The translations under genes were made by a program, and so were the position numbers. From Staphylococcus phage VB_SavM_JYL01, in sequence record MH159197.1: 64,000 nucleotides of DNA. One strand, 5' to 3'. The first letter of the stretch is position 1; every line of letters begins with the position of its first letter. Below the pieces are notes generated by a model. The model did not search any database and was not told the origin of the DNA. It saw nothing but the letters and a program-made list of their open reading frames with translations. Below are positions 2,931 through 10,856 of this stretch, piece after piece.

Positions 2931-3671
2931 TTACCATTTAAAATTGTCTGCGTACTGAGCTAACTTAGAACGGAAATTAACTGTAAAATTATGGAATACC
3001 GCACCATCATAATTTTTAAAATATTCCATATAATCTCCAAAACCTGATTTACTTTCATTTTTTAAATCTATTTGCTTGAAATTTCCTTCAACTATTACTG
3101 TAGAATTTTTTGTATGAATCCTTGTAAGTACTTTCTTAAGTTCACTTCGTTTAAAGTTTTGTGCTTCATTTATAATTATAGTAGCATCCCTTAAATTACC
3201 GCCTCTTAAAAATAAATGTGATATTTGGGATACCCAACATTCACCTAATTTATCTTCTTTGACATTATCTTCCATCATTAACATTTCGGTTATTTGTTGT
3301 TCAGGACTCATATTAAGTTCAATAAGGGCATCATGTAATCCCATGAAATAAGCCATTTCTTTTTCTGTTTGGTTACCAGGTCTACTACCTAAATCTTCTG
3401 ATACAGGTGAAATTACAAATACTAATTTTCTGTTCTTATTTAGATAATCAGCATAAGCACAAGCTACTGAACACATTGTTTTACCCGTACCGGCTTGACT
3501 TTCATTCCAAAGTATTTCAACATTATCATTAAAGAAATCCTCACAGAAATCTAATTGCTCAGTTGTAGCTTTTTCAAGGAATTCATTGAATACTAGATGT
3601 TCTCCCATGTTATATCTTACATTAGGATAATCCTTTAACTTAAAGTCTAACTCTTTTAGTTGTATTGCCAT
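2931..3671 (-). CDS. phoH: PhoH-like ATPase
   Basis: Walker A SQAGTGKT plus PhoH-family overall pattern, 246 aa. Confidence 0.8.
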   Translation of the reverse strand: MAIQLKELDFKLKDYPNVRYNMGEHLVFNEFLEKATTEQLDFCEDFFNDNVEILWNESQAGTGKTMCSVACAYADYLNKNRKLVFVISPVSEDLGSRPGNQTEKEMAYFMGLHDALIELNMSPEQQITEMLMMEDNVKEDKLGECWVSQISHLFLRGGNLRDATIIINEAQNFKRSELKKVLTRIHTKNSTVIVEGNFKQIDLKNESKSGFGDYMEYFKNYDGAVFHNFTVNFRSKLAQYADNFKW

Positions 3672-3722
3672 ATTTTAAAGTTCCCCTATCTATAAATAGT
3701 TTTACTCTCTTTTAATATAGTA

Positions 3723-4337
3723 CTAATTACCTATATATTCACCTGTTGAAGAACAATAGTTACTGCAGTTACATTCAGGATAATTTTCACAAACTTCTTC
3801 ATCTTCATCATCAAATAAGTCTTCATGATAAATACTAGAATCAAAATCTACAATACAATTTTCCCCTTTACCTTTAGATATGCCTGTGTAAATAACTTCA
3901 TCAACCATATCCCAATCATTACTTACTAAGTAATTTACAGTATTTGATACTGAATCATTATCAGGTAAGTAGATATCACCATCTGTAAACTTAATTAAAA
4001 TATCTCCTTGAGGGAGTACATCATTAATTAAATCAATTTCTGTTTCTTCTTCAATTGTAAATACAGTTCCTTCTAGCTTTTCAGGAGTAGTATGTGTTAA
4101 ATGTTTAACATCTTCTCCTGATTCTTCATAAAATCCTACTGCATTCATTTCCTTGTTATACTTTGCAATAAATTTACCATTATCACTGACTAAATATTGA
4201 CTGTTTGCATTATAATCTTCTGCATCTTCTAAAGTCATAGATGGGTTATGGTCTTTAACATAATAACTAATTTTTCTAACATCTGTTGTTTGAATTTTCT
4301 TTCCTTCACCTTTAATTACTGAATTAATTTTTTTCAT
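3723..4337 (-). CDS. hypothetical acidic protein with Cys-rich C-terminus (CENYPECNCSNYC)
   Basis: ORF track. Confidence 0.5.
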   Translation of the reverse strand: MKKINSVIKGEGKKIQTTDVRKISYYVKDHNPSMTLEDAEDYNANSQYLVSDNGKFIAKYNKEMNAVGFYEESGEDVKHLTHTTPEKLEGTVFTIEEETEIDLINDVLPQGDILIKFTDGDIYLPDNDSVSNTVNYLVSNDWDMVDEVIYTGISKGKGENCIVDFDSSIYHEDLFDDEDEEVCENYPECNCSNYCSSTGEYIGN

Positions 4338-4352
4338 AATATTTTCTCCTTT

Positions 4353-4778
4353 TTATATATCAATTGATTTTTTTGCAAGATTATCAGCGTAGTCATTCCA
4401 TTTATCATTTGAGTGGCTTTTTACTTTTACAAAGTTTATATCTATTACTTTTTGGTATTCTCGTATCATATTAATATATGTTTTACTTAGAATATTTCTT
4501 GCAGACCAAGTACCTTCATACCAATGTATTAAACCAATATAATCTATATAAACTATTGCCTGATTGTATCCTAATTTTATAGCCTCTTCGATACCATAAC
4601 AACAAGCTAATATTTCACCTGCAACATTATTATACTTTATCAATCCTGGTTTGTCAACACTTTTACTAATTTCCGCTATTATATTTCCTTCTTTACTTAC
4701 TAAGACAGCACCTGAGCCTACTTTACCTTTATTATAAGATGAGCTACCGTCTGTGTATATATTTACACTATCCTGCAT
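4353..4778 (-). CDS. rnhA: ribonuclease H (RNase HI type)
   Basis: IYTDGS...NNVAGE...HSNDKWNDYAD catalytic pattern (DEDD). Start reassigned to the internal Met (cat 4776-4778), which has a GGAGG SD 10 nt upstream. The track ORF ran to 4907 without an RBS. Confidence 0.8.
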   Translation of the reverse strand: MQDSVNIYTDGSSSYNKGKVGSGAVLVSKEGNIIAEISKSVDKPGLIKYNNVAGEILACCYGIEEAIKLGYNQAIVYIDYIGLIHWYEGTWSARNILSKTYINMIREYQKVIDINFVKVKSHSNDKWNDYADNLAKKSIDI

Positions 4779-4959
4779 ATTTATAATCCTCCATAAATTG
4801 AGGGAATTCACAATCTGAATATACTTCTCTGCAGAAAGATACTGAAATATAATTAAAATCAAAACATTTGAAACAGTGTTCTTGAACTTCTTTTTTGTCT
4901 TTAGCAATCACATTAAATTTAAAACCATCAGCTATTACTGTAAATACTCCTTTTTTCAT
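4768..4959 (-). CDS. small Cys-containing protein (63 aa; HCFKCF...C...C possible Zn ribbon)
   Basis: GGAGGT SD 10 nt upstream of the ATG at 4959. Overlaps the rnh start by 11 nt. Confidence 0.5.
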   Translation of the reverse strand: MKKGVFTVIADGFKFNVIAKDKKEVQEHCFKCFDFNYISVSFCREVYSDCEFPQFMEDYKYAG

Positions 4960-4981
4960 AAAACAAATACCTCCACTAATT

Positions 4982-5623
4982 TTATTTTAAATTAATAACT
5001 AACTCAATAAACGATTTAATAGTTTTATTTTTACCTTCATCAATATCTGAAAAGAAATTAATTAAACTATCATCTTCATCAAATAAATCTTCAACATCAT
5101 CAAATTTATTTAATATATCTGTAACACTATAACCTTCTTCTGATATATACTCATGCAAGTCTTCTCCATCCTCTGACAGAGTTGCTTCTATCTTACCATT
5201 CTTACTTTCAATTAAATACAAAGTATTTAATACTTTAATAGAATCTACTACTACACTGTAATTACTAATAGTAGGATACTCTGTATAAAGTATTTCCACA
5301 TTAGTATTCATATAACTATCAATTACAGAATTAACTGTGTCCCTTTTTAATTCAGATACATTATGTTTTCGTATAGTAGGGAATTCTTCGTCATATTCTA
5401 CTAATTCTTTTCTATCTGTATTCAATAATTTGTCTAAAGAAGATAATAATACTATTTTATATTGATTGTCCGGTAGACTATCTGTAATTTCCATAATGGT
5501 TAAAAAAGTATCTTCACCTAAAACTTTATTTATATCTTGTAATTCAAATGAATCTACCATTTCAATAGTATCATCTATATCATCTGTAGTCATTAAAAAA
5601 TTAACTAAATTATTATTCTCCAT
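4982..5623 (-). CDS. hypothetical acidic protein (213 aa)
   Basis: ORF track. Confidence 0.55.
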   Translation of the reverse strand: MENNNLVNFLMTTDDIDDTIEMVDSFELQDINKVLGEDTFLTIMEITDSLPDNQYKIVLLSSLDKLLNTDRKELVEYDEEFPTIRKHNVSELKRDTVNSVIDSYMNTNVEILYTEYPTISNYSVVVDSIKVLNTLYLIESKNGKIEATLSEDGEDLHEYISEEGYSVTDILNKFDDVEDLFDEDDSLINFFSDIDEGKNKTIKSFIELVINLK

Positions 5624-5843
5624 CGTCTTCCTCCAATTCTTTAAATAGCTCTTTACCTGGAGTATTTAACGCCTTCTCTAACCTCATTAAATTAGCACTT
5701 CTTGGTTTCTTTTTACCATACTCCCAATAAGATATAAGAGAATAATGGACTCCTATCTCAGAAGCTAGGCTTCTTAATGTATGTCCTTTTTCTACTCTAA
5801 TTTTTTGAAGATTTAGAGGTTTACTTTCCTTTTTTTCATCCAT
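5613..5843 (-). CDS. XRE-family helix-turn-helix transcriptional regulator
   Basis: LRSLASEIGVHYSLISYWEYGKKKPRSANLMRLEKAL is a canonical HTH_3 pattern. Confidence 0.75.
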   Translation of the reverse strand: MDEKKESKPLNLQKIRVEKGHTLRSLASEIGVHYSLISYWEYGKKKPRSANLMRLEKALNTPGKELFKELEEDDGE

Positions 5844-5845
5844 AA

Positions 5846-6073
5846 CTATTTCTCCTCTACTTTTAAAAATTTAAAATCCTCAGATGCTTTTGCATTTTTT
5901 AGTATATACTCTTGTGATTTATTTCTTGCCTCTGCTTTACTTTTAGCATATAACTCTATATGAAATACATGAGGTTTTTTTAAAGATGGTGATTCATATC
6001 TCCAATAAACTTTAAAAAGTAGTGTTTCTTTTTTTAGAACATTAATTCTAAACCATCTTTTAAATTTATTCAT
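5846..6073 (-). CDS. small basic protein (75 aa)
   Basis: ORF track; lies directly downstream of the consensus promoter at 6106-6134. Confidence 0.5.
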   Translation of the reverse strand: MNKFKRWFRINVLKKETLLFKVYWRYESPSLKKPHVFHIELYAKSKAEARNKSQEYILKNAKASEDFKFLKVEEK

Positions 6074-6105
6074 TCATTATCCTCCTTTATTTATTTGTTA
6101 AACTA

Positions 6106-6134
6106 ATTATAGCATAGTTAACTTATGAAGTCAA
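6106..6134 (-). promoter_or_regulatory. sigma-A consensus promoter (TTGACT-17-TATAAT)
   Basis: Minus strand: TTGACT (6129-6134), 17-nt spacer, TATAAT (6106-6111). Confidence 0.6.
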
Positions 6135-6144
6135 CTATAATATA

Positions 6145-6174
6145 CAAAAAAGACTAAGAAATTAATCTTAGTCT
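6145..6174 (-). terminator. intrinsic terminator of 6182..6874
   Basis: Hairpin agactaaga/tcttagtct followed by a U6 run on the minus strand. Confidence 0.6.
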
Positions 6175-6181
6175 TAATATA

Positions 6182-6874
6182 TTAATAACTATTATGTGCG
6201 TTGTGGTATGCAAGAGCTCCTGATGTTGAACCGTAACGGTCAATCATATATTGTTTTGCACCTTTAGTTTGTTCTGCTATAGAACCCCCACTCCATGATT
6301 TACCTAATCCTTGGAATAGTCCTTGAGCTCCTGATGATGCATTAACGGCATTAGGATTCAGTGTAGATTCACGCATAGCAATTTCAATCATTGCCTCGTC
6401 TCCACCTGCTTGTCTAATTTGTTCTGCTACAGAACCTCCTGTAGAACTAGTTGATTGTGTAGGTTGTTTAGTTTCTTTTTGAACTGGTGCTGATGTTGGT
6501 TGTACTTCTTTTTTAGTATCTTGTTTATTTTGAGTATCAAATTGCGCTTGTTGTTGGTCTACTTTTTGTTCAGGTGTTTGTTCTTCTCCTGCTAATCTAG
6601 ATACTGTATTATCTACTTGAGTTGAACCTGAGTGATATTCGTATCCAAAATTACCATTATAATTATAGAAATGATAAGTAAATTCTCCGTCACTGAATGA
6701 GAAATCATAGTTACCTTCTTGAATTGGTTTTGTATTTACTTCTACTGAATTTGATTTAGCTTGTTCTGCTAACTTATTATAATCAATTTCGTCTGCACTA
6801 GCTTCGTTTGTAGCAATACCTCCAAAAGTAATAGCCGTACCTAATGCTAATGTTGCAAAAATTGTTTTCTTCAT
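6182..6874 (-). CDS. secreted IsaA/SceD-like lytic transglycosylase (Sec signal peptide, then a lysozyme-like domain)
   Basis: N-terminus MKKTIFATLALGTAITFGGIATNEASA is a typical signal peptide. The C-terminus AMRESTLNPNAVNASSGAQGLFQ aligns with the IsaA transglycosylase core (ARESNG..N.SGA.GLFQ). Confidence 0.7.
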   Translation of the reverse strand: MKKTIFATLALGTAITFGGIATNEASADEIDYNKLAEQAKSNSVEVNTKPIQEGNYDFSFSDGEFTYHFYNYNGNFGYEYHSGSTQVDNTVSRLAGEEQTPEQKVDQQQAQFDTQNKQDTKKEVQPTSAPVQKETKQPTQSTSSTGGSVAEQIRQAGGDEAMIEIAMRESTLNPNAVNASSGAQGLFQGLGKSWSGGSIAEQTKGAKQYMIDRYGSTSGALAYHNAHNSY

Positions 6875-7038
6875 AAATTTAAAACTCCTTAAATAATTTT
6901 TTAGAATTGTTTATTTGTAAATCGACATAAGTAATCATAACATATATCTTTAAATAACGCAAGTATAATATAGCACTAATTAGTGTAATATTATTAAAGT
7001 TTTATTACAAACATTACAGTTATCAGATAATTAAAGAC

Positions 7039-7062
7039 AAAAAAAGAGAGGTATTAACCTCC
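7039..7062 (-). terminator. weak intrinsic terminator of 7071..7865
   Basis: Short gaggt/acctc stem with a U-run on the minus strand. Confidence 0.35.
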
Positions 7063-7070
7063 CTAATTTA

Positions 7071-7865
7071 TTATTTCCCTGTTACGTCTACGATAGTTCC
7101 GTCTCCGCCAATTTGAATAGGTTGTTTACCATCCCATTTTTCAATTAACTGTTGACGTAATATCTTATCAGATAAAGAAGATTCTCTAATCTCATTGGCT
7201 TTTTTATCACCATTAGCTTCTACTTCTTTTTTCTTAGCATTTTGTTCAGCAATTTGTTTATCAACTTTAGTACGTTCTAACTCTTGGTTAGCTTTAACAC
7301 GGCTGTCAATTGCTTTTTGAGTGTTCTTATCTGCTTTAGGGCTAGATAATGCAATATCCTCAATTACAAATCCTTGTTTTTCTAAGTTATCATTTAAGCT
7401 ATCTAAAGTATCTTTTTTAATTTCTCCTGTCTTAACACCAAATGCATCAATTACAGAATATTTAGATACTGCCTGACGAACATTATCTTGCACACGTGAA
7501 CGCAAGTATCCTTTTTCTAGTTCTTCAATATCTGCACTACCAAAACGATTAAATAAATCTACAGCTTTAGTTGCATCTACTTTATAAGATACATCAATAT
7601 CCATTTGTAAATTTTTGCCGTCTGAAGTTGCTACATTTAAATCTTTATATTTATGTGTTTGTGTTTTAGTTGGATATTTATTTACCTTATCAAAAGGTGC
7701 TGTTAAGTGCCAACCAGGTGATTTAGTATCTTCCTTAACACCATTTACTGAGTATACAACTCCAACATGACCTTGTGGAATCTTTGTAATACACATTAAT
7801 AAAATAATAAATCCTATAATTGCTAAAAACCCTAATACTCCTGAAATAACTACTGACTTTCTCAT
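7071..7865 (-). CDS. SPFH/band-7 (stomatin/flotillin-like) membrane protein
   Basis: N-terminal TM, then GHVGVVYSVNGVKEDTKSPGWHLTAPFDKV (SPFH beta-sheet signature), then a long coiled-coil tail. Confidence 0.65.
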   Translation of the reverse strand: MRKSVVISGVLGFLAIIGFIILLMCITKIPQGHVGVVYSVNGVKEDTKSPGWHLTAPFDKVNKYPTKTQTHKYKDLNVATSDGKNLQMDIDVSYKVDATKAVDLFNRFGSADIEELEKGYLRSRVQDNVRQAVSKYSVIDAFGVKTGEIKKDTLDSLNDNLEKQGFVIEDIALSSPKADKNTQKAIDSRVKANQELERTKVDKQIAEQNAKKKEVEANGDKKANEIRESSLSDKILRQQLIEKWDGKQPIQIGGDGTIVDVTGK

Positions 7866-8173
7866 TACATTTCTCCTTTTTCTATTTCTTTTATTAAGCT
7901 ATTTAAAGCTTTTTCCTCTTGGTCTATTTCTTGCTTATCGGCTCTAGTTACAATTGATTGTCTGCGGTCGTTTAAGAATTGTTTTTTATACTTTACATAT
8001 TGTTCTAAACCGTATTCATCTAATGTACCTTGCCTAACTAATTCCCTGTATTGTTTTCTTATGTTACTTTTCTTTTCTTTCATTGAAAGAAAATCGAATA
8101 CATAACTTATACCAAAACCTACAAGGACTAGAAAAACAATAAAAATAGCAAAGTATGTTAAAAATAATGCCAT
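7865..8173 (-). CDS. small membrane protein translationally coupled to the SPFH gene (NfeD-like partner candidate)
   Basis: 102 aa with an N-terminal TM. Its stop overlaps the SPFH start (ATGA). Confidence 0.5.
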   Translation of the reverse strand: MALFLTYFAIFIVFLVLVGFGISYVFDFLSMKEKKSNIRKQYRELVRQGTLDEYGLEQYVKYKKQFLNDRRQSIVTRADKQEIDQEEKALNSLIKEIEKGEM

Positions 8174-8204
8174 GTAATTCCTCCTTTATTTGATTACATA
8201 TATA

Positions 8205-8233
8205 ACTATACACTATGTATTTAATTTTGTCAA
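8205..8233 (-). promoter_or_regulatory. sigma-A consensus promoter (TTGACA-17-TATAGT)
   Basis: Minus strand: TTGACA (8228-8233), 17-nt spacer, TATAGT (8205-8210). AAAGGAGG SD precedes the ATG at 8173. Confidence 0.6.
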
Positions 8234-8244
8234 CACTTTTTTGC

Positions 8245-8275
8245 AAAAAAAATAGACGGATTTTAAATCCGTCTA
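8245..8275 (-). terminator. intrinsic terminator of the endolysin gene
   Basis: Hairpin tagacgga/tccgtcta followed by a U8 run on the minus strand. Confidence 0.65.
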
Positions 8276-8285
8276 AATTTCTATT

Positions 8286-9773
8286 CTATTTGAATACTCC
8301 CCAAGCAACCCCAGGTATATGATTAGGTGGAACTCCTTGACAAGTTCTAACAGGGCAATATACTCTGTTACCATTGTAAGCATTGTAACCTATCCAAATG
8401 TGACCTGCTTGGATACAAACTTCGTCATATACAATTGTAGCTCCTGCCGGTAAGTTACCTCCTACTGGAGCATTTAAGAATGGAGAACCTATTCTAGTTA
8501 CTATAGGTTGGTTACCATTAACAAATGTTGCATTTTCCGGTTTGTACCAAGTTCCGTACTGGTTCTTTTTCCAAGAGCCTGTTACTGGTCTAGTTGCCGG
8601 TGTACTTGCGCTACTTGTTTTACCGTCTTTAACTACTGTAGAACTTGAAGTTCCTTTATCCATGTAGTTTTTAATTTGTTTAATGAAATAATCTTTTAGT
8701 TTATTCATTATTGCTTGAGATGGTCTTCCTTGTGTTACTGGATTAAATCCTGTATGAAGAACCATAGAACGATGAGGACAAGCTGTTGGAACAAATTCCA
8801 TATGCAATCTTACAGTTTTACGATTAGGAGTAAGACCCCATTCTTTAAATTTCTCTGCAGTAAATTGGAATACTGCTTGTTCGTTTTTAAGGAATTGAGC
8901 ATCACTAGCACTCATTGATTGACAGACTTCAATACCTGCAAATCTAAAGTTACCTGAGTTTGCTCCTGTTCCATCTCCTGTGTGCCAAGCAATTTGATTC
9001 TTAGCATCTATTGCTTCCCATACATAACCTTCAGAGCCATAGTAATGAGCAATACCATTAGCATATCTAGCATAACCTGCGTTAGCTAATGAATTCTCGT
9101 ATTGTTGCCCTGAAGAACGACCTGCATCGTTGTGTATTACCATTCCTTCAGGTTTCTTACCACGTTTATCCATTGTATAGTTAATATGGTTCTTAGAAAC
9201 TTTTAGTGTTGCTTTCTTTTTAGGTGCAGGTGTTTTACTTGCACTTTTCTTAGCTGTTTCTTTTTTAACAGTAGTTCCTGCTTTTACAGGTATCTCAATA
9301 AAATGAGTTAATCCGTAATAATTATCTACACGTTTTGTAGGTTTTTTATTAGCGTAACCGTTCCAGTTTTGCTCTAAAATAGTAAATGTAGAAGTATTAC
9401 CTCCATCATATACAATACCTATGTGACCCCATTGCTGATAACTACCGGATGTAAATACAGCAATCCATCCTTTTTTAGGTACTGTAGAAGGTTTATTTTC
9501 ATGTATTTTAAATCCAGTACCATAACTTTGTTTGATTTGGTCTTTAGCATTACCCCAAGTTCTAACTTTATTATCTGTTAACCATAATACATAATCAGTA
9601 ATTAAGTCTTGGCACTGTGCATGATAGTAACCATCTGCGTCAATTGCTCCTGCTTCCATTACACCAAACGATGGGTCATAGCTTGTAGCTTTTTTAATTC
9701 TATAAGGACTGTCTACTGTACCTTTTGCATAAGCGTCTAAACGTTTATTTATTTCTGCTTGAGTCTTAGCCAT
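8286..9773 (-). CDS. lysK: endolysin with CHAP, amidase_2 and SH3b domains (LysK-like), uninterrupted
   Basis: 495 aa. The N-terminus [24 protein letters not shown]... and the CHAP Cys/His region match what I recall of phage K endolysin, and there is a C-terminal SH3b domain. Confidence 0.9.
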
Positions 9774-10276
9774 TACTTAACTTCCTCCTCTGCAAATACT
9801 TTACCGTGTTCCTCGGTATCTTCTTCATCTTGAGAAGGTGCTGAACCGCCATCAATTTCATCTTCAATAGCAGGTACTTCATCACTATCATCTGTATCAG
9901 GTTCTGCATTGTTTTCATAGTTGTCTAATTCGAAAGTGCTAGCTGTGTTTGCATTTGCTTGCCATTGAACAAATTCATTAGGGTCTTTACTATCACGAGG
10001 TTTTATATAATCTGTTTGAACAATATCACTATCTTTAAGACCTTTAGTATTATTATCAACAATAATACCTAAACCTGCTAATAATGTTAGTATAGAACCT
10101 ATGATATTTACACCTTGCTCAATTTGAGCTGAGTAGTCTAAACCAAAAGCACCTGTAATTTGATTAGCAAATACTGCTACTGCTGATATAATTGCTACCC
10201 AAAATGTTTTACTCTTAGTTCTTGTGCTAAAGTTTATTCCTCCAACAACTTTAGGTTGTTTAGTTTCATTAGCCAT
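9773..10276 (-). CDS. holin
   Basis: 167 aa with 2 TM segments and a charged C-terminal tail. Sits immediately upstream of, and overlaps, the endolysin. Confidence 0.8.
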
Positions 10277-10277
10277 T

Positions 10278-10334
10278 AAAAAACCGACCTTTCTATTATA
10301 TTTATTTCTAACAATAATATAACAGTAGGTCGGT
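10278..10334 (-). terminator. large-loop hairpin plus U-run ending the 10361..10546 transcript
   Basis: accgacct (10283-10290) pairs with aggtcggt (10327-10334) and is followed by a U-run. The 36-nt loop carries the late motif. Confidence 0.4.
10315..10324 (-). promoter_or_regulatory. late-promoter motif TGTTATATTA upstream of holin-endolysin
   Basis: Exact 10-mer on the minus strand, ~40 nt upstream of the holin ATG. The same 10-mer recurs before the capsid, tape-measure and fiber operons. Confidence 0.55.
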
Positions 10335-10360
10335 CATGTTTATCTATATTAATTTAACAC

Positions 10361-10546
10361 TTACTCATTAATTTGATTTAGTTTTTTGATAACTTCAGAC
10401 ATTTGTTTGTTATCTAAATCTTCTAATTTAGTTTCAGGTAATAACTCTAATTTATCCCAAACTTCTTCTTTATTAGATACTTTATTATTAATAATTGCCT
10501 TACCAACTAAACTTTCCGTATAATATAATTGCTTTGCTGATGCCAT
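10361..10546 (-). CDS. hypothetical protein (61 aa)
   Basis: ORF track. Confidence 0.45.
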   Translation of the reverse strand: MASAKQLYYTESLVGKAIINNKVSNKEEVWDKLELLPETKLEDLDNKQMSEVIKKLNQINE

Positions 10547-10705
10547 TTGTATCTCTCCTTTTAAATATGTAAAGTATATAGCTAGTATCGTATCCTAGGA
10601 ACAAACACTTGCGCTATATACTCAATGAAACTCTACCCTCATTCGAGGACACAGCAAACCGATTCGTCAACCGCACATGTGAATTCTCAAGTTTCATTTA
10701 TGTAA

Positions 10706-10777
10706 CACACCCTCTTTGATTTGCACAAAGACTAAGGGTTTTGGAGACCCTTGTACTACTAATTATACTAAGGGTGT
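10706..10777 (-). tRNA. tRNA-Trp (anticodon CCA)
   Basis: Hand-folded cloverleaf. Acceptor ACACCCT/AGGGTGT, anticodon stem AGGGT/ACCCT, loop CTCCAAA. D- and T-loops are slightly non-canonical. Confidence 0.6.
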
Positions 10778-10783
10778 TTATTA

Positions 10784-10856
10784 TGGTTTCTATTGGATTT
10801 GAACCAATGACACCTAGAGCTTCAATCTAGTGCTCTACCATCTGAGCTAAGAAACC
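10784..10856 (-). tRNA. tRNA-Phe (anticodon GAA)
   Basis: Acceptor GGTTTCT/AGAAACC, D-stem GCTC/GAGC, anticodon stem CTAGA/TCTAG, loop TTGAAGC, T-arm ATTGG-TTCAAAT-CCAAT. Confidence 0.8.

What the first reader, a model, noticed from the sequence alone, without database searches (positions are those of the whole stretch)
7071..8173. SPFH (stomatin/flotillin-like) gene translationally coupled to a small TM gene, directly upstream of holin-endolysin
A band-7/SPFH protein (264 aa) overlaps by ATGA with a 102-aa single-TM protein. This mirrors the bacterial SPFH-NfeD operon logic. The pair has its own consensus early promoter (8205-8233) and sits immediately next to the lysis cassette. Membrane-microdomain scaffolds in a virulent phage could organise holin rafts or delay lysis. 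They could also remodel host membrane proteases or block superinfection.
Basis: partly seen in the sequence, partly recalled or inferred. Interest (0 to 1): 0.55.

Follow-up and report, generated by a model that had tools for sequence, protein, structure and literature searches.

The report
Phage prohibitin-like membrane cage gene pair
This is the already-named MbpV/MbpS gene pair of Staphylococcus Kayvirus phages, a prohibitin-type membrane scaffold with a small membrane partner that is switched on well before the lysis genes next to it; its job in infection has never been tested.

Summary
On the minus strand, a 102-aa single-pass membrane protein (8173..7865) is translationally coupled to a 264-aa SPFH protein (7865..7071). 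The pair has its own sigma-70-type promoter and terminator. The window is a G15-like Kayvirus, and the genes are the published MbpV and MbpS (phage K gp196/gp197, annotated "prohibitin family").

Three points in the finding need correction:
- The pair lies downstream of holin-endolysin, not upstream.
- The first stop codon is TAA, giving a 1-nt overlap (TAATGA).
- Published RNA-seq shows early/middle, abundant, constant expression, whereas holin and endolysin are late.

MbpS is prohibitin/erlin/HflKC-like. It is predicted to face outward from the membrane, so it is not flotillin-like. MbpV is all-helical and is not NfeD.

A small transmembrane ORF sits directly upstream of the SPFH gene in 150 of 157 related loci. 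These include a fixed chromosomal operon in Macrococcus. None of the other phage loci examined links the pair to lysis genes.

Best reading: a self-contained cage-forming membrane module shared with Bacillales chromosomes, acting from early infection. Its target is unknown; FtsH-type proteostasis or membrane stabilisation is inferred by family analogy. The pair is already known, and interest is moderate to low.

The parts
8253..8275 (-). Intrinsic terminator ending the holin-LysK late transcript; it separates the lysis cassette from the mbpV-mbpS unit.
   Evidence: 10-bp stem followed by a T-run. The same hairpin is listed as a terminator after gp195 in the phage K RNA-seq study.
8205..8233 (-). 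Sigma-70-type promoter of the mbpV-mbpS unit: TTGACA, 17-nt spacer, TATAGT.
   Evidence: 11 of 12 consensus matches. It equals phage K promoter 29 for gp196, class 'middle'. Transcripts are already at full level at 5 min in phage 515A1. No late -10 motif lies nearby.
8180..8186 (-). Shine-Dalgarno sequence AAGGAGG of mbpV.
   Evidence: Read directly from the sequence.
7865..8173 (-). mbpV (phage K gp196). A 102-aa small membrane protein with an N-terminal TM (about aa 2-30, nt 8084-8170) and a charged helical tail predicted to be cytoplasmic.
   Evidence: ORF. Hydropathy. AF2 model all-helical, pLDDT 67. No Pfam, NCBIfam or PADLOC family. Named MbpV in GenBank and in PMC7150955. K+R bias places the tail inside.
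7873..7876 (-). GGAG Shine-Dalgarno of mbpS, embedded in the last codons (K-G-E) of mbpV. The TAATGA junction lies at 7867-7862.
   Evidence: Read directly from the sequence. The same tight junction (gaps mostly -8 to +10 nt) is seen in related loci.
7071..7865 (-). mbpS (phage K gp197). A 264-aa prohibitin-type SPFH protein. Segments: TM anchor aa 2-25 (nt 7791-7862), SPFH domain aa 26-178 (nt 7332-7790), long helices aa 180-242 (nt 7140-7328), and a conserved C-terminal KWDGKxP...G.IV tail.
   Evidence: Pfam PF01145 E=2e-32. phrog_200 E=2e-90. AF2 pLDDT 82.9. Foldseek top hits are the prohibitin, erlin and HflK/C complexes. Conserved columns.
7045..7064 (-). Intrinsic terminator ending the mbpV-mbpS unit.
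   Evidence: 8-bp stem followed by a T-run. Phage K also has a terminator after gp197.
9773..10324 (-). Context only: holin gene (10276..9773) with its late-promoter -10 motif TGTTATATTA at 10315-10324. It is a separate late transcription unit together with LysK (9773..8286).
   Evidence: Pfam Phage_holin_1 for the holin; CHAP, Amidase_2 and SH3_5 for LysK. Motif. Late class in RNA-seq.

Best explanation
mbpV-mbpS is a self-contained two-gene membrane module, not a component of the lysis cassette.

MbpS is a prokaryotic prohibitin-type SPFH protein. It has a short cytoplasmic N-terminus and one TM anchor. The SPFH domain, the long oligomerisation helices and the C-terminal cap motif lie on the outer face of the cytoplasmic membrane. 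By analogy with prohibitin, erlin and HflK/C, it most likely assembles into a multimeric ring or cage that fences off a patch of membrane.

MbpV is its conserved, translationally coupled partner. It is a single-pass protein with the opposite orientation (N-out, charged helical tail in the cytoplasm), and it probably sits in or at the cage through its TM segment.

The host RNA polymerase transcribes the pair from a strong sigma-70-type promoter within minutes of infection and keeps it abundant throughout.

Shown: gene structure, family, fold, expression timing, conservation of the pair, and its existence as a chromosomal operon in Macrococcus and Bacillaceae.

Inferred: topology, cage formation and MbpV-MbpS contact.

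Most likely effect (inference by family analogy, low certainty): the cages compartmentalise the infected cell's membrane to restrain or redirect membrane quality control, with an FtsH-type protease as the classic client of this SPFH branch. They may also stabilise the membrane until the holin fires. On this view the phage supplies S. aureus with a scaffold type that was not seen in its own chromosome in these searches.
For: - Family and fold: Pfam Band_7 E=2e-32. Best PDB sequence hits are erlin-1/2 and prohibitin-1/2. The AF2 model (pLDDT 82.9) has TM, SPFH, a 50-residue helix, a second helix and a tail. Foldseek top matches are the full-length human prohibitin complex (1.7e-16), erlin1/2 and HflK/C with FtsH; flotillin is weaker.
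- Outward topology: K/R bias is N-side > C-side in 38 of 53 SPFH homologues and the reverse in 89 of 108 partners. Homologues with true lipoboxes are anchored at the same position (phiE125 gp43 LAAGC; S. pseudintermedius LLTAC/LLAAC). This matches the prediction for SPFH4 p-prohibitins (PMC2636767).
- Partner: a small TM ORF lies directly upstream in 150 of 157 loci, against 15.6% for other genes. Profile cross-hits link partner groups, while 636 decoy TM ORFs gave only one hit at E<=0.01, and that ORF is a genuine partner from a locus that had been left out. The long-form family is collinear across Kayvirus, Sepunavirus, Sextaecvirus, staphylococcal prophages and Macrococcus.
- Cellular origin: the pair sits at a fixed site, greA-pnp-yqeG-[pair]-yqeH-aroE, in the Macrococcus/Macrococcoides genomes examined. 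Identity to MbpS is 58-67%.
- Timing: mbpS about 16-21k and mbpV about 6-7k normalised counts at 5, 15 and 30 min, whereas holA and lysK.2 rise about 100-fold. TU29 is 'middle' and TU31 is 'late' in phage K.
- Protein made: LC-MS/MS detection.
- Near-universal in Kayvirus: 224 and 222 records, against 230 with the Kayvirus-type holin.
Against: - No experiment addresses function, topology, oligomerisation or MbpV-MbpS contact. All four are predictions.
- Neither chromosomal nor phage neighbourhoods contain FtsH or any recurrent protease partner, so the FtsH link rests only on analogy with HflK/C and prohibitin.
- The opposite predicted orientations of MbpV and MbpS leave only TM-TM contact. In lipoprotein homologues the SPFH protein would have no TM left, which weakens a TM-mediated complex model.
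- The MbpV model has low confidence (pLDDT 67).
- In all Kayviruses the pair does sit between LysK and the secreted lytic enzyme Tgl, so a lysis- or envelope-related role cannot be excluded.
Confidence: 0.5

Rival explanations
1. Lysis-timing device. The SPFH cage organises holin rafts, or acts as an antiholin-like brake that delays holin triggering. MbpV would be a holin-like or antiholin-like small TM protein.
For: In Kayviruses the pair lies immediately next to holin-LysK and before the secreted lytic transglycosylase Tgl. MbpV has the TM-plus-charged-tail look of small holins, as noted in PMC7150955. Antiholins such as T4 RI can be made early (own knowledge).
Against: A terminator and a separate promoter isolate the pair from the cassette. 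Expression is early/middle and flat, while holin and endolysin are strictly late. There is no late-promoter motif. The module occurs without neighbouring lysis genes in other staphylococcal, Bacillus, Enterococcus, Streptococcus, Burkholderia and gut phages, and as a chromosomal operon in bacteria. MbpV matches no holin family. A bona fide Phage_holin_1 holin is present.
Confidence: 0.12
2. Superinfection exclusion or protection from lysis-from-without. An abundant early protein layer on the outer face of the membrane blocks DNA ejection or the virion-borne wall hydrolases of secondary phages.
For: Expression is early and abundant. The location is predicted extracytoplasmic, with lipoprotein homologues. 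Known exclusion proteins are early membrane proteins or lipoproteins, for example T4 Imm/Sp and TP-J34 Ltp (own knowledge). The SPFH gene is widespread in unrelated phages: 795 records.
Against: The same module is a fixed, non-prophage chromosomal operon in Macrococcus and sits in a recurrent housekeeping region in Bacillaceae, which argues for a general membrane function. In prophages it lies in the lytic early/replication region rather than in a lysogeny-expressed position. There is no PADLOC match.
Confidence: 0.15
3. Secretion helper for Tgl (proposal of Glowacka-Rutkowska et al. 2020). MbpS builds a microdomain that promotes Sec/SpsB-dependent export of the phage transglycosylase encoded just downstream.
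For: tgl is the next gene in this window (6874..6182) and Tgl is Sec-secreted. Flotillin microdomains support Sec function in Bacillus (cited).
Against: tgl has its own weak early and late promoters and is a separate transcription unit. The SPFH module occurs in many phages and bacteria with no Tgl next to it. MbpS is not flotillin-type and is predicted to face outward.
Confidence: 0.08
4. Dispensable accessory cargo. The operon was picked up from a Staphylococcaceae chromosome and gives no measurable benefit under laboratory conditions.
For: High identity (58-67%) to cellular homologues indicates gene exchange. SPFH deletions are often phenotypically silent in bacteria (PMC13086221 abstract).
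Against: The pair is retained in about 97% of Kayvirus-type records and in several other staphylococcal phage genera. It has a strong promoter and very high transcript levels. The coupled gene pair is conserved across deep divergence.
Confidence: 0.1

Closest known systems
MbpV / MbpS of Kayvirus phages (phage K gp196/gp197; MSA6, A3R, 515A1 annotation)
   Same: These are the same genes: 98-100% (MbpV) and 88-100% (MbpS) identity, with the same order, promoter and terminators. The SPFH domain of MbpS and the holin-like look of MbpV were published in 2020 (PMC7150955). RefSeq phage K already names gp197 a prohibitin-family protein.
   Different: Nothing differs in substance. This G15-type genome lacks the extra 636-nt gene (K gp198) between mbpS and tgl. 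It also carries a divergent MbpS C-terminal tail.
HflK/HflC, prohibitin 1/2 and erlin 1/2 cages (SPFH3/SPFH4 branch)
   Same: Type-II anchoring with the SPFH domain on the non-cytoplasmic side. The same domain order: TM, SPFH, long helix, C-terminal cap segment. These are the best sequence and fold matches.
   Different: MbpS is a single SPFH gene, so presumably a homo-oligomer rather than a hetero-pair. It has a small single-pass partner that those systems lack. No FtsH or m-AAA link has been shown. Identity is only 17-20%.
SPFH-NfeD operons (QmcA-YbbJ, YqiK-YqiJ, FloT-YuaF, PH1511-PH1510)
   Same: An SPFH gene is co-transcribed and tightly coupled with a membrane-protein partner gene.
   Different: The partner has no NfeD/OB-fold domain and is all-helical. 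The SPFH protein belongs to the p-prohibitin branch, for which no NfeD partner exists. Its orientation is predicted outward, whereas the NfeD-associated stomatin- and flotillin-type proteins face the cytoplasm.
Bacterial flotillins FloA/FloT (functional membrane microdomains of S. aureus and B. subtilis)
   Same: SPFH superfamily; membrane scaffolds proposed to organise microdomains.
   Different: Flotillins have a hairpin anchor, a cytoplasmic SPFH domain and a much longer C-terminal flotillin domain. The fold match is clearly weaker (E about 1e-8, target TM-score about 0.31).

Membership tests
SPFH / Band 7 superfamily (PF01145) | Significant match to the SPFH domain profile. | tested here: met
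   PF01145 E=2e-32, 113.1 bits against a cut-off of 23.6, covering aa 28-208.
SPFH / Band 7 superfamily (PF01145) | Alpha/beta SPFH fold followed by a long oligomerisation helix, with an N-terminal membrane anchor. | tested here: met
   AF2 model with pLDDT 82.9: H2-25, strands 26-96, helices 98-162, H180-230. Foldseek probability is 1.00 to many SPFH cage subunits.
SPFH / Band 7 superfamily (PF01145) | Assembly into high-order rings or cages. | not testable with these tools
   Only monomer prediction was available. Needs cryo-EM, native PAGE or multimer modelling.
Prohibitin / HflK-C type (SPFH3/4; outward-facing cages) | Closest similarity to prohibitin, erlin or HflC rather than to stomatin or flotillin. 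| tested here: met
   PDB sequence search: erlin-1/2 and prohibitin-1/2 only. NCBIfam's best (sub-threshold) match is HflC. Foldseek rank 1-13 are prohibitin, erlin and HflK/C. Databases name homologues 'prohibitin family protein'.
Prohibitin / HflK-C type (SPFH3/4; outward-facing cages) | N-in / C-out topology, with the SPFH domain on the non-cytoplasmic side. | tested here: inconclusive
   This is a prediction only. The positive-inside bias favours N-in in 38 of 53 homologues (4 opposite). Lipobox-bearing homologues are anchored at the same position. No experimental topology exists.
Prohibitin / HflK-C type (SPFH3/4; outward-facing cages) | Functional or physical association with an FtsH-type AAA protease. 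| not testable with these tools
   No FtsH or protease gene recurs next to the module in phages or chromosomes. Needs co-purification.
Flotillin (FloA/FloT type) | Flotillin-type architecture (hairpin anchor, cytoplasmic SPFH, extended flotillin C-terminal domain) and best similarity to flotillins. | tested here: not met
   The protein is 264 aa with a single TM. Flotillin hits are weak and partial (E about 1e-8, TMt 0.31-0.32) compared with prohibitin (1.7e-16, TMt 0.59). Predicted topology is outward.
NfeD (SPFH operon partner) | C-terminal NfeD OB-fold beta-barrel domain (PF01957), with or without a ClpP-like protease domain. | tested here: not met
   No Pfam or NCBIfam hit for MbpV or for 7 diverse partners. 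The AF2 model contains only helices. The literature finds no NfeD partner for SPFH4.
Holin (MbpV) | Membership of a holin family, late expression with the endolysin, and lethal hole formation. | tested here: not met
   No holin family match. MbpV is expressed from 5 min at a constant level in a different transcription unit from LysK. The cassette has its own Phage_holin_1 holin. Lethality was not testable.
Bacterial lipoprotein (database label 'lipoprotein', phrog_200) | Lipobox [LVI][ASTVI][GAS]C at the end of the signal peptide. | tested here: not met
   MbpS has L-L-M-C, with a non-canonical -1 residue. Canonical lipoboxes exist in some homologues (LTAC, AAGC) but in only 5 of 160 sampled loci. 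MbpS is more likely an uncleaved signal-anchor.
Known anti-phage defence proteins (PADLOC) | Match to a defence-system protein model. | tested here: not met
   No PADLOC family for MbpS. MbpV gave only chance-level hits (E 0.004-0.03).

The most novel reading that the evidence does not exclude
MbpV-MbpS may be the phage copy of a so far undescribed two-component prohibitin system of Firmicutes. The system would consist of an outward-facing SPFH cage plus an obligatory small N-out/C-in single-pass partner whose charged tail reaches into the cytoplasm. Kayviruses and many other phages would import it early in infection to cage a specific host membrane client, such as FtsH. The effect would be to protect phage membrane proteins, or to shut the membrane to secondary phages. 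This would be a new kind of host-takeover device, and the first function assigned to bacterial p-prohibitins.
Probability: 0.2. Interest if true: 0.65.

Novelty: already known. Interest (0 to 1): 0.33.

Why it matters
Kayviruses are leading therapeutic phages, and MbpS is among their most highly transcribed non-structural genes. Its role is nevertheless untested. Bacterial prohibitin-type SPFH proteins were still unstudied when the family was classified in 2009 (PMC2636767), and I found no functional study of this clade. If the pair were shown to cage a host protease or to seal the membrane against other phages, two things would follow. It would explain why SPFH genes recur in hundreds of unrelated phages. 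It would also give a handle on a conserved but unnamed small partner family. As it stands, the finding restates a published annotation. The suggested tie to lysis is positional only.

Tried and rejected
- NfeD analogy: rejected. No PF01957 or OB-fold match, and an all-helical model.
- MbpV as holin: rejected on family and timing.
- 'Lipoprotein' label for MbpS: the lipobox is not canonical.
- Defence or anti-defence identity: no PADLOC match. The literature searches found no functional study of any phage SPFH protein.
- Weak resemblance of the short Bacillus partners to TatA (E=0.0024, 17.7 bits against a cut-off of 104): treated as chance or compositional.
- Conserved lysis neighbours in other phages: none in seven annotated or gene-called loci. 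None among the Pfam families shared by 2 or more flanking ORFs of 14 viral loci. Singleton families beyond the 25 listed were not visible, so isolated cases cannot be excluded.
- A recurrent functional neighbour (FtsH, protease) in 26 Bacillaceae loci: none, only the lexA/tkt/sirA/ccdA region.
- Single-sequence search with MbpV: reached only Kayviruses. Distant partners were recognised only through synteny and profiles.
- Whether S. aureus itself lacks this SPFH type: could not be tested exhaustively. S. aureus-labelled hits sat on phage-sized contigs, and none appeared among the 80 genome loci kept.
Full report
**Identity of the window and of the genes**

The 1.5-kb region is 100% identical to Staphylococcus phages qdsa002, ESa2 and SDQ, and 99.8% identical to G15 (genus Kayvirus, Herelleviridae).

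On the minus strand the gene order is as follows:
- holin, 10276..9773 (Pfam Phage_holin_1)
- endolysin LysK, 9773..8286 (CHAP, Amidase_2, SH3_5)
- a terminator hairpin, 8275..8253
- a TTGACA-17-TATAGT promoter, 8233..8205
- a 102-aa ORF, 8173..7865
- a 264-aa ORF, 7865..7071
- a second terminator, 7064..7045
- the SceD-like transglycosylase tgl, 6874..6182

The two ORFs are the published mbpV and mbpS. GenBank records for A3R, Staph1N and others name MbpV. Phage K calls the genes gp196 ('putative membrane protein') and gp197 ('prohibition [sic] family protein'). Glowacka-Rutkowska et al. 2020 had already reported three things. MbpS carries the PF01145 SPFH motif, MbpV is a 102-aa TM protein that 'resembles holins', and MbpS might help Tgl secretion (PMC7150955).

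**Check of the observation**

Lengths, coordinates, the SPFH match (E=2e-32), the single N-terminal hydrophobic segments and the promoter are all correct.

The junction reads GAA-ATG-TAA-TGA-G. The first stop is TAA and shares one base with the mbpS ATG. The ATGA string exists only through a second in-frame stop. A GGAG ribosome-binding site sits inside the last codons of mbpV.

The pair is downstream of the lysis cassette on the coding strand, not upstream.

**Transcription**

Two independent RNA-seq studies of close relatives settle the regulation.

In phage 515A1, normalised counts at 5, 15 and 30 min were about 16.4-17.7k, 18.1-21.5k and 19.3-23.8k for mbpS, and about 6.2-8.0k throughout for mbpV. 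Fold changes were 1.0-1.3. In contrast, lysK.2 and holA rose from about 50-100 to about 3,500-10,800, roughly 92- and 106-fold (Table S1 of PMC7698491).

That paper lists TU15 among the five most abundantly transcribed early units and the only one of them with a single promoter. From its position between TU13 (tgl) and TU16 (lysK/holA), I infer that TU15 is most likely this pair.

In phage K the same promoter (TTGACAAAATTAATACATAGTGTATAGT) is promoter 29 in the study's promoter table. gp196 and gp197 form TU29, class 'middle'. Holin and endolysin are TU31, class 'late'. Terminators follow gp195 and gp197 (supplement of PMC9241854).

In this window the late -10 motif TGTTATATTA occurs exactly upstream of the holin (10315-10324). 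A one-mismatch copy lies upstream of tgl (6966-6975). None lies upstream of mbpV.

MbpS peptides were found by LC-MS/MS in fRuSau02 preparations (PMC5618024).

**What MbpS is**

Sequence searches of solved structures return only erlin-1/2 and prohibitin-1/2 (E 2e-9 to 5e-3). NCBIfam's best match, below threshold, is HflC.

An AlphaFold2 model built on 53 homologues has a mean pLDDT of 82.9. It shows a TM helix (aa 2-25), the SPFH alpha/beta domain (26-175), a 50-residue helix (180-230), a short helix (233-242) and a tail. The tail carries the nearly invariant K243, W244, G246 and P249.

Foldseek ranks the human prohibitin complex first (1.7e-16). Erlin1/2, HflK/C (with FtsH) and stomatin follow. 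Flotillin is clearly weaker (about 1e-8, target TM-score 0.31).

In the classification of Hinderhofer et al. 2009 this places MbpS with the p-prohibitins (SPFH4). That paper describes SPFH4 as a group with no NfeD partner and no studied bacterial member, predicted to face the periplasm (PMC2636767).

**Topology (predicted)**

K+R residues are enriched on the N-terminal side of the anchor in 38 of 53 MbpS homologues and on the opposite side in 4. This predicts N-in / C-out.

Independent support comes from homologues in which the anchor is a genuine lipobox at the same position, just before the conserved (I/V)PxG motif. Examples are Burkholderia phage phiE125 gp43 (LAAGC-D) and the S. pseudintermedius prophage proteins (LLTAC, LLAAC). 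Lipoproteins are extracytoplasmic.

MbpS itself has LLMC, which is not a canonical lipobox. The database label 'lipoprotein' (phrog_200) is therefore probably wrong for this protein.

For the small partners the bias is reversed: the C-flank exceeds the N-flank in 89 of 108 and the opposite holds in 7. This predicts N-out with the charged tail in the cytoplasm.

**What MbpV is**

MbpV matches no Pfam, NCBIfam or PADLOC family. The AF2 model is entirely helical, with no beta-barrel (pLDDT 67). It is therefore not an NfeD protein.

By single-sequence search it is confined to Kayviruses and a few Mammaliicoccus phages. Synteny, however, reveals diverged counterparts immediately upstream of the SPFH gene in several lineages:
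- Sepunavirus BE06 (90 aa)
- Sextaecvirus CF9 (91 aa)
- Mammaliicoccus phage phi6255 (101 aa)
- large S. pseudintermedius prophages (103 aa)
- Macrococcus chromosomes (103 aa)

These proteins are collinear. Each has a TM segment, a juxtamembrane S-(K/R)-L-Y-D-Y motif and a C-terminal EIKxLExELxExNxLI helix. A profile of them retrieves only 'hypothetical' or 'MbpV' proteins with no Pfam domain.

**Generality of the pair**

I collected 160 loci encoding MbpS relatives: 80 viral contigs and 80 bacterial genomes.

A small ORF (160 aa or fewer) with a TM segment ends within -150 to +130 nt of the SPFH start in 150 of 157 usable loci. The rate for other long ORFs in the same loci is 144 of 923, or 15.6%. 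Many viral loci are near-duplicates, but there are 108 distinct partner sequences. Estimated gaps cluster between -8 and +10 nt, which implies translational coupling.

Profiles built from the short Bacillaceae partners hit all 25 distinct gut-phage partners at E<=0.01, and the reverse search hit 50 of 55. Both profiles reach the long MbpV group more weakly (4e-4 to 1e-3). Only one of 636 decoy TM ORFs scores, and it is a true partner from an excluded locus.

The link between the long and short forms is therefore plausible but not proven.

**Cellular counterpart**

In the Macrococcus/Macrococcoides genomes examined, the pair occupies the same chromosomal site, greA-pnp-yqeG-[partner-SPFH]-yqeH-aroE. 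Identity to MbpS is 58-67%.

In Bacillaceae the pair recurs near lexA/tkt/sirA/ccdA. No other conserved neighbour was seen: there were 144 Pfam families among 149 flanking ORFs, and no FtsH or other recurrent protease partner among the 25 most frequent families shown.

S. aureus-labelled hits lie on phage-sized contigs. No S. aureus chromosomal copy surfaced, but this was not tested exhaustively.

**Link to lysis**

The SPFH gene is found by tblastn in 795 phage records from many hosts. In every other lineage inspected it sits among early or DNA-metabolism genes:
- RNA ligase in BE06
- DNA polymerase in CF9 and in Bacillus phage B5S
- thymidylate synthase and ribonucleotide reductase in Enterococcus phage TJE1
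- the replication region in Streptococcus prophage 315.1
- the ligase, methylase and RNR region in S. pseudintermedius prophages

In 14 representative viral loci the recurrent flanking families are DNA methylase, RNA ligase, RNR, NrdI, adenylosuccinate synthetase and AAA_24. No lysis family is among those shared by two or more ORFs.

Adjacency to holin-endolysin is thus specific to Kayvirus. Within Kayvirus the pair is near-universal: 224 (MbpS) and 222 (MbpV) records at 80% identity or more, against 230 for the Kayvirus-type holin.

**Mechanism**

What is shown is a tightly coupled, highly and early-expressed gene pair. It encodes a prohibitin-fold scaffold and a conserved small membrane partner, and it is shared with bacterial chromosomes.

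What is inferred:
- outward-facing cage formation, by analogy with prohibitin, erlin and HflK/C structures
- TM-level association with MbpV
- a role in compartmentalising the infected membrane

The most family-faithful guess for the client is an FtsH-type protease or general membrane proteostasis and stability. Neither genomic context nor any experiment supports a specific client.

The rivals are lysis timing, superinfection exclusion, Tgl secretion and dispensable cargo. They are weighed in the Rival explanations section. None is excluded. The lysis and Tgl ideas are weakened by timing, by transcription-unit structure and by the absence of these neighbours elsewhere.

**Verdict**

The feature is real and correctly located, but it is already named and annotated in the literature. 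The proposed tie to the lysis cassette is not supported by expression or comparative data. The NfeD and flotillin analogies fail their membership tests.

The analysis adds four things:
- the recognition of a conserved, unnamed small-partner family
- the predicted opposite topologies of the two proteins
- the cellular operon in Macrococcus and Bacillaceae
- the early/DNA-metabolism context in other phages

Noticed in passing
window 6875-7070: This G15-type genome has only a 195-bp spacer between mbpS and tgl. Phages K and 515A1 carry an extra 636-nt hypothetical gene there (K gp198, 515A1 ORF00068) with its own promoter and terminator.
   Followed up: partly
window 7071-7166 (MbpS aa 233-264): The C-terminal tail of MbpS is only about 55% identical between the G15-type and K-type alleles, whereas the TM and SPFH parts are 93-100% identical. 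The K-type tail (...SIGSDSVITNLNK) reappears in a more distant homologue (P0092). This suggests mosaic exchange of the putative cap segment.
   Followed up: partly
window 7788-7790 (MbpS Cys25); alignment A1: A cysteine at the outer end of the anchor, three residues before the (I/V)PQG motif, is present in many staphylococcal and macrococcal homologues. It is preceded by non-canonical residues (LLMC, AFMC, AILC). Only a few homologues have a true lipobox (LTAC).
   Followed up: partly
L010 8783-9388; also L009, L011, L018 6717-7310, L020 6765-7370: In large S. pseudintermedius prophage-like elements a third gene overlaps the SPFH stop codon by one base. It encodes a roughly 200-aa multi-pass membrane protein with PQ-loop similarity, giving a three-gene membrane operon. 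Kayviruses lack it at this position.
   Followed up: no
window 8286-9773: LysK is a single uninterrupted 495-aa ORF here. In phages K and 515A1 it is split by a group I intron carrying an HNH endonuclease gene with its own promoter.
   Followed up: no
window 8337-8364 (+ strand): A near-consensus promoter-like site (TTGACA-16-TATACT, 11 of 12 matches) lies antisense within the 3' end of lysK. It may be chance, since the scan found no more sites than shuffled sequence would give.
   Followed up: no
L013 1-6011: In one Macrococcus equipercicus genome a phage- or satellite-like block (DnaB-type helicase, Encapsidation_CP3 and others) replaces the usual greA-pnp-yqeG flank immediately upstream of the chromosomal partner-SPFH pair. 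The site may be an integration hotspot.
   Followed up: no
proteins P0047, P0096, P0137: Near-identical MbpS and MbpV fragments are deposited under Klebsiella pneumoniae and Histophilus somni on contigs of 1-2 kb. This is most likely phage or sample contamination in those assemblies.
   Followed up: no
L007 4262-4417; L008 3789-3938: In Enterococcus phage TJE1 a 51-aa TM protein overlaps the SPFH stop codon by one base, so it lies downstream rather than upstream. In Burkholderia phage phiE125 a 49-aa hydrophobic ORF (gp44) overlaps the start of the SPFH lipoprotein gene. Small membrane partners may therefore be more general than the Bacillales clade.
   Followed up: partly
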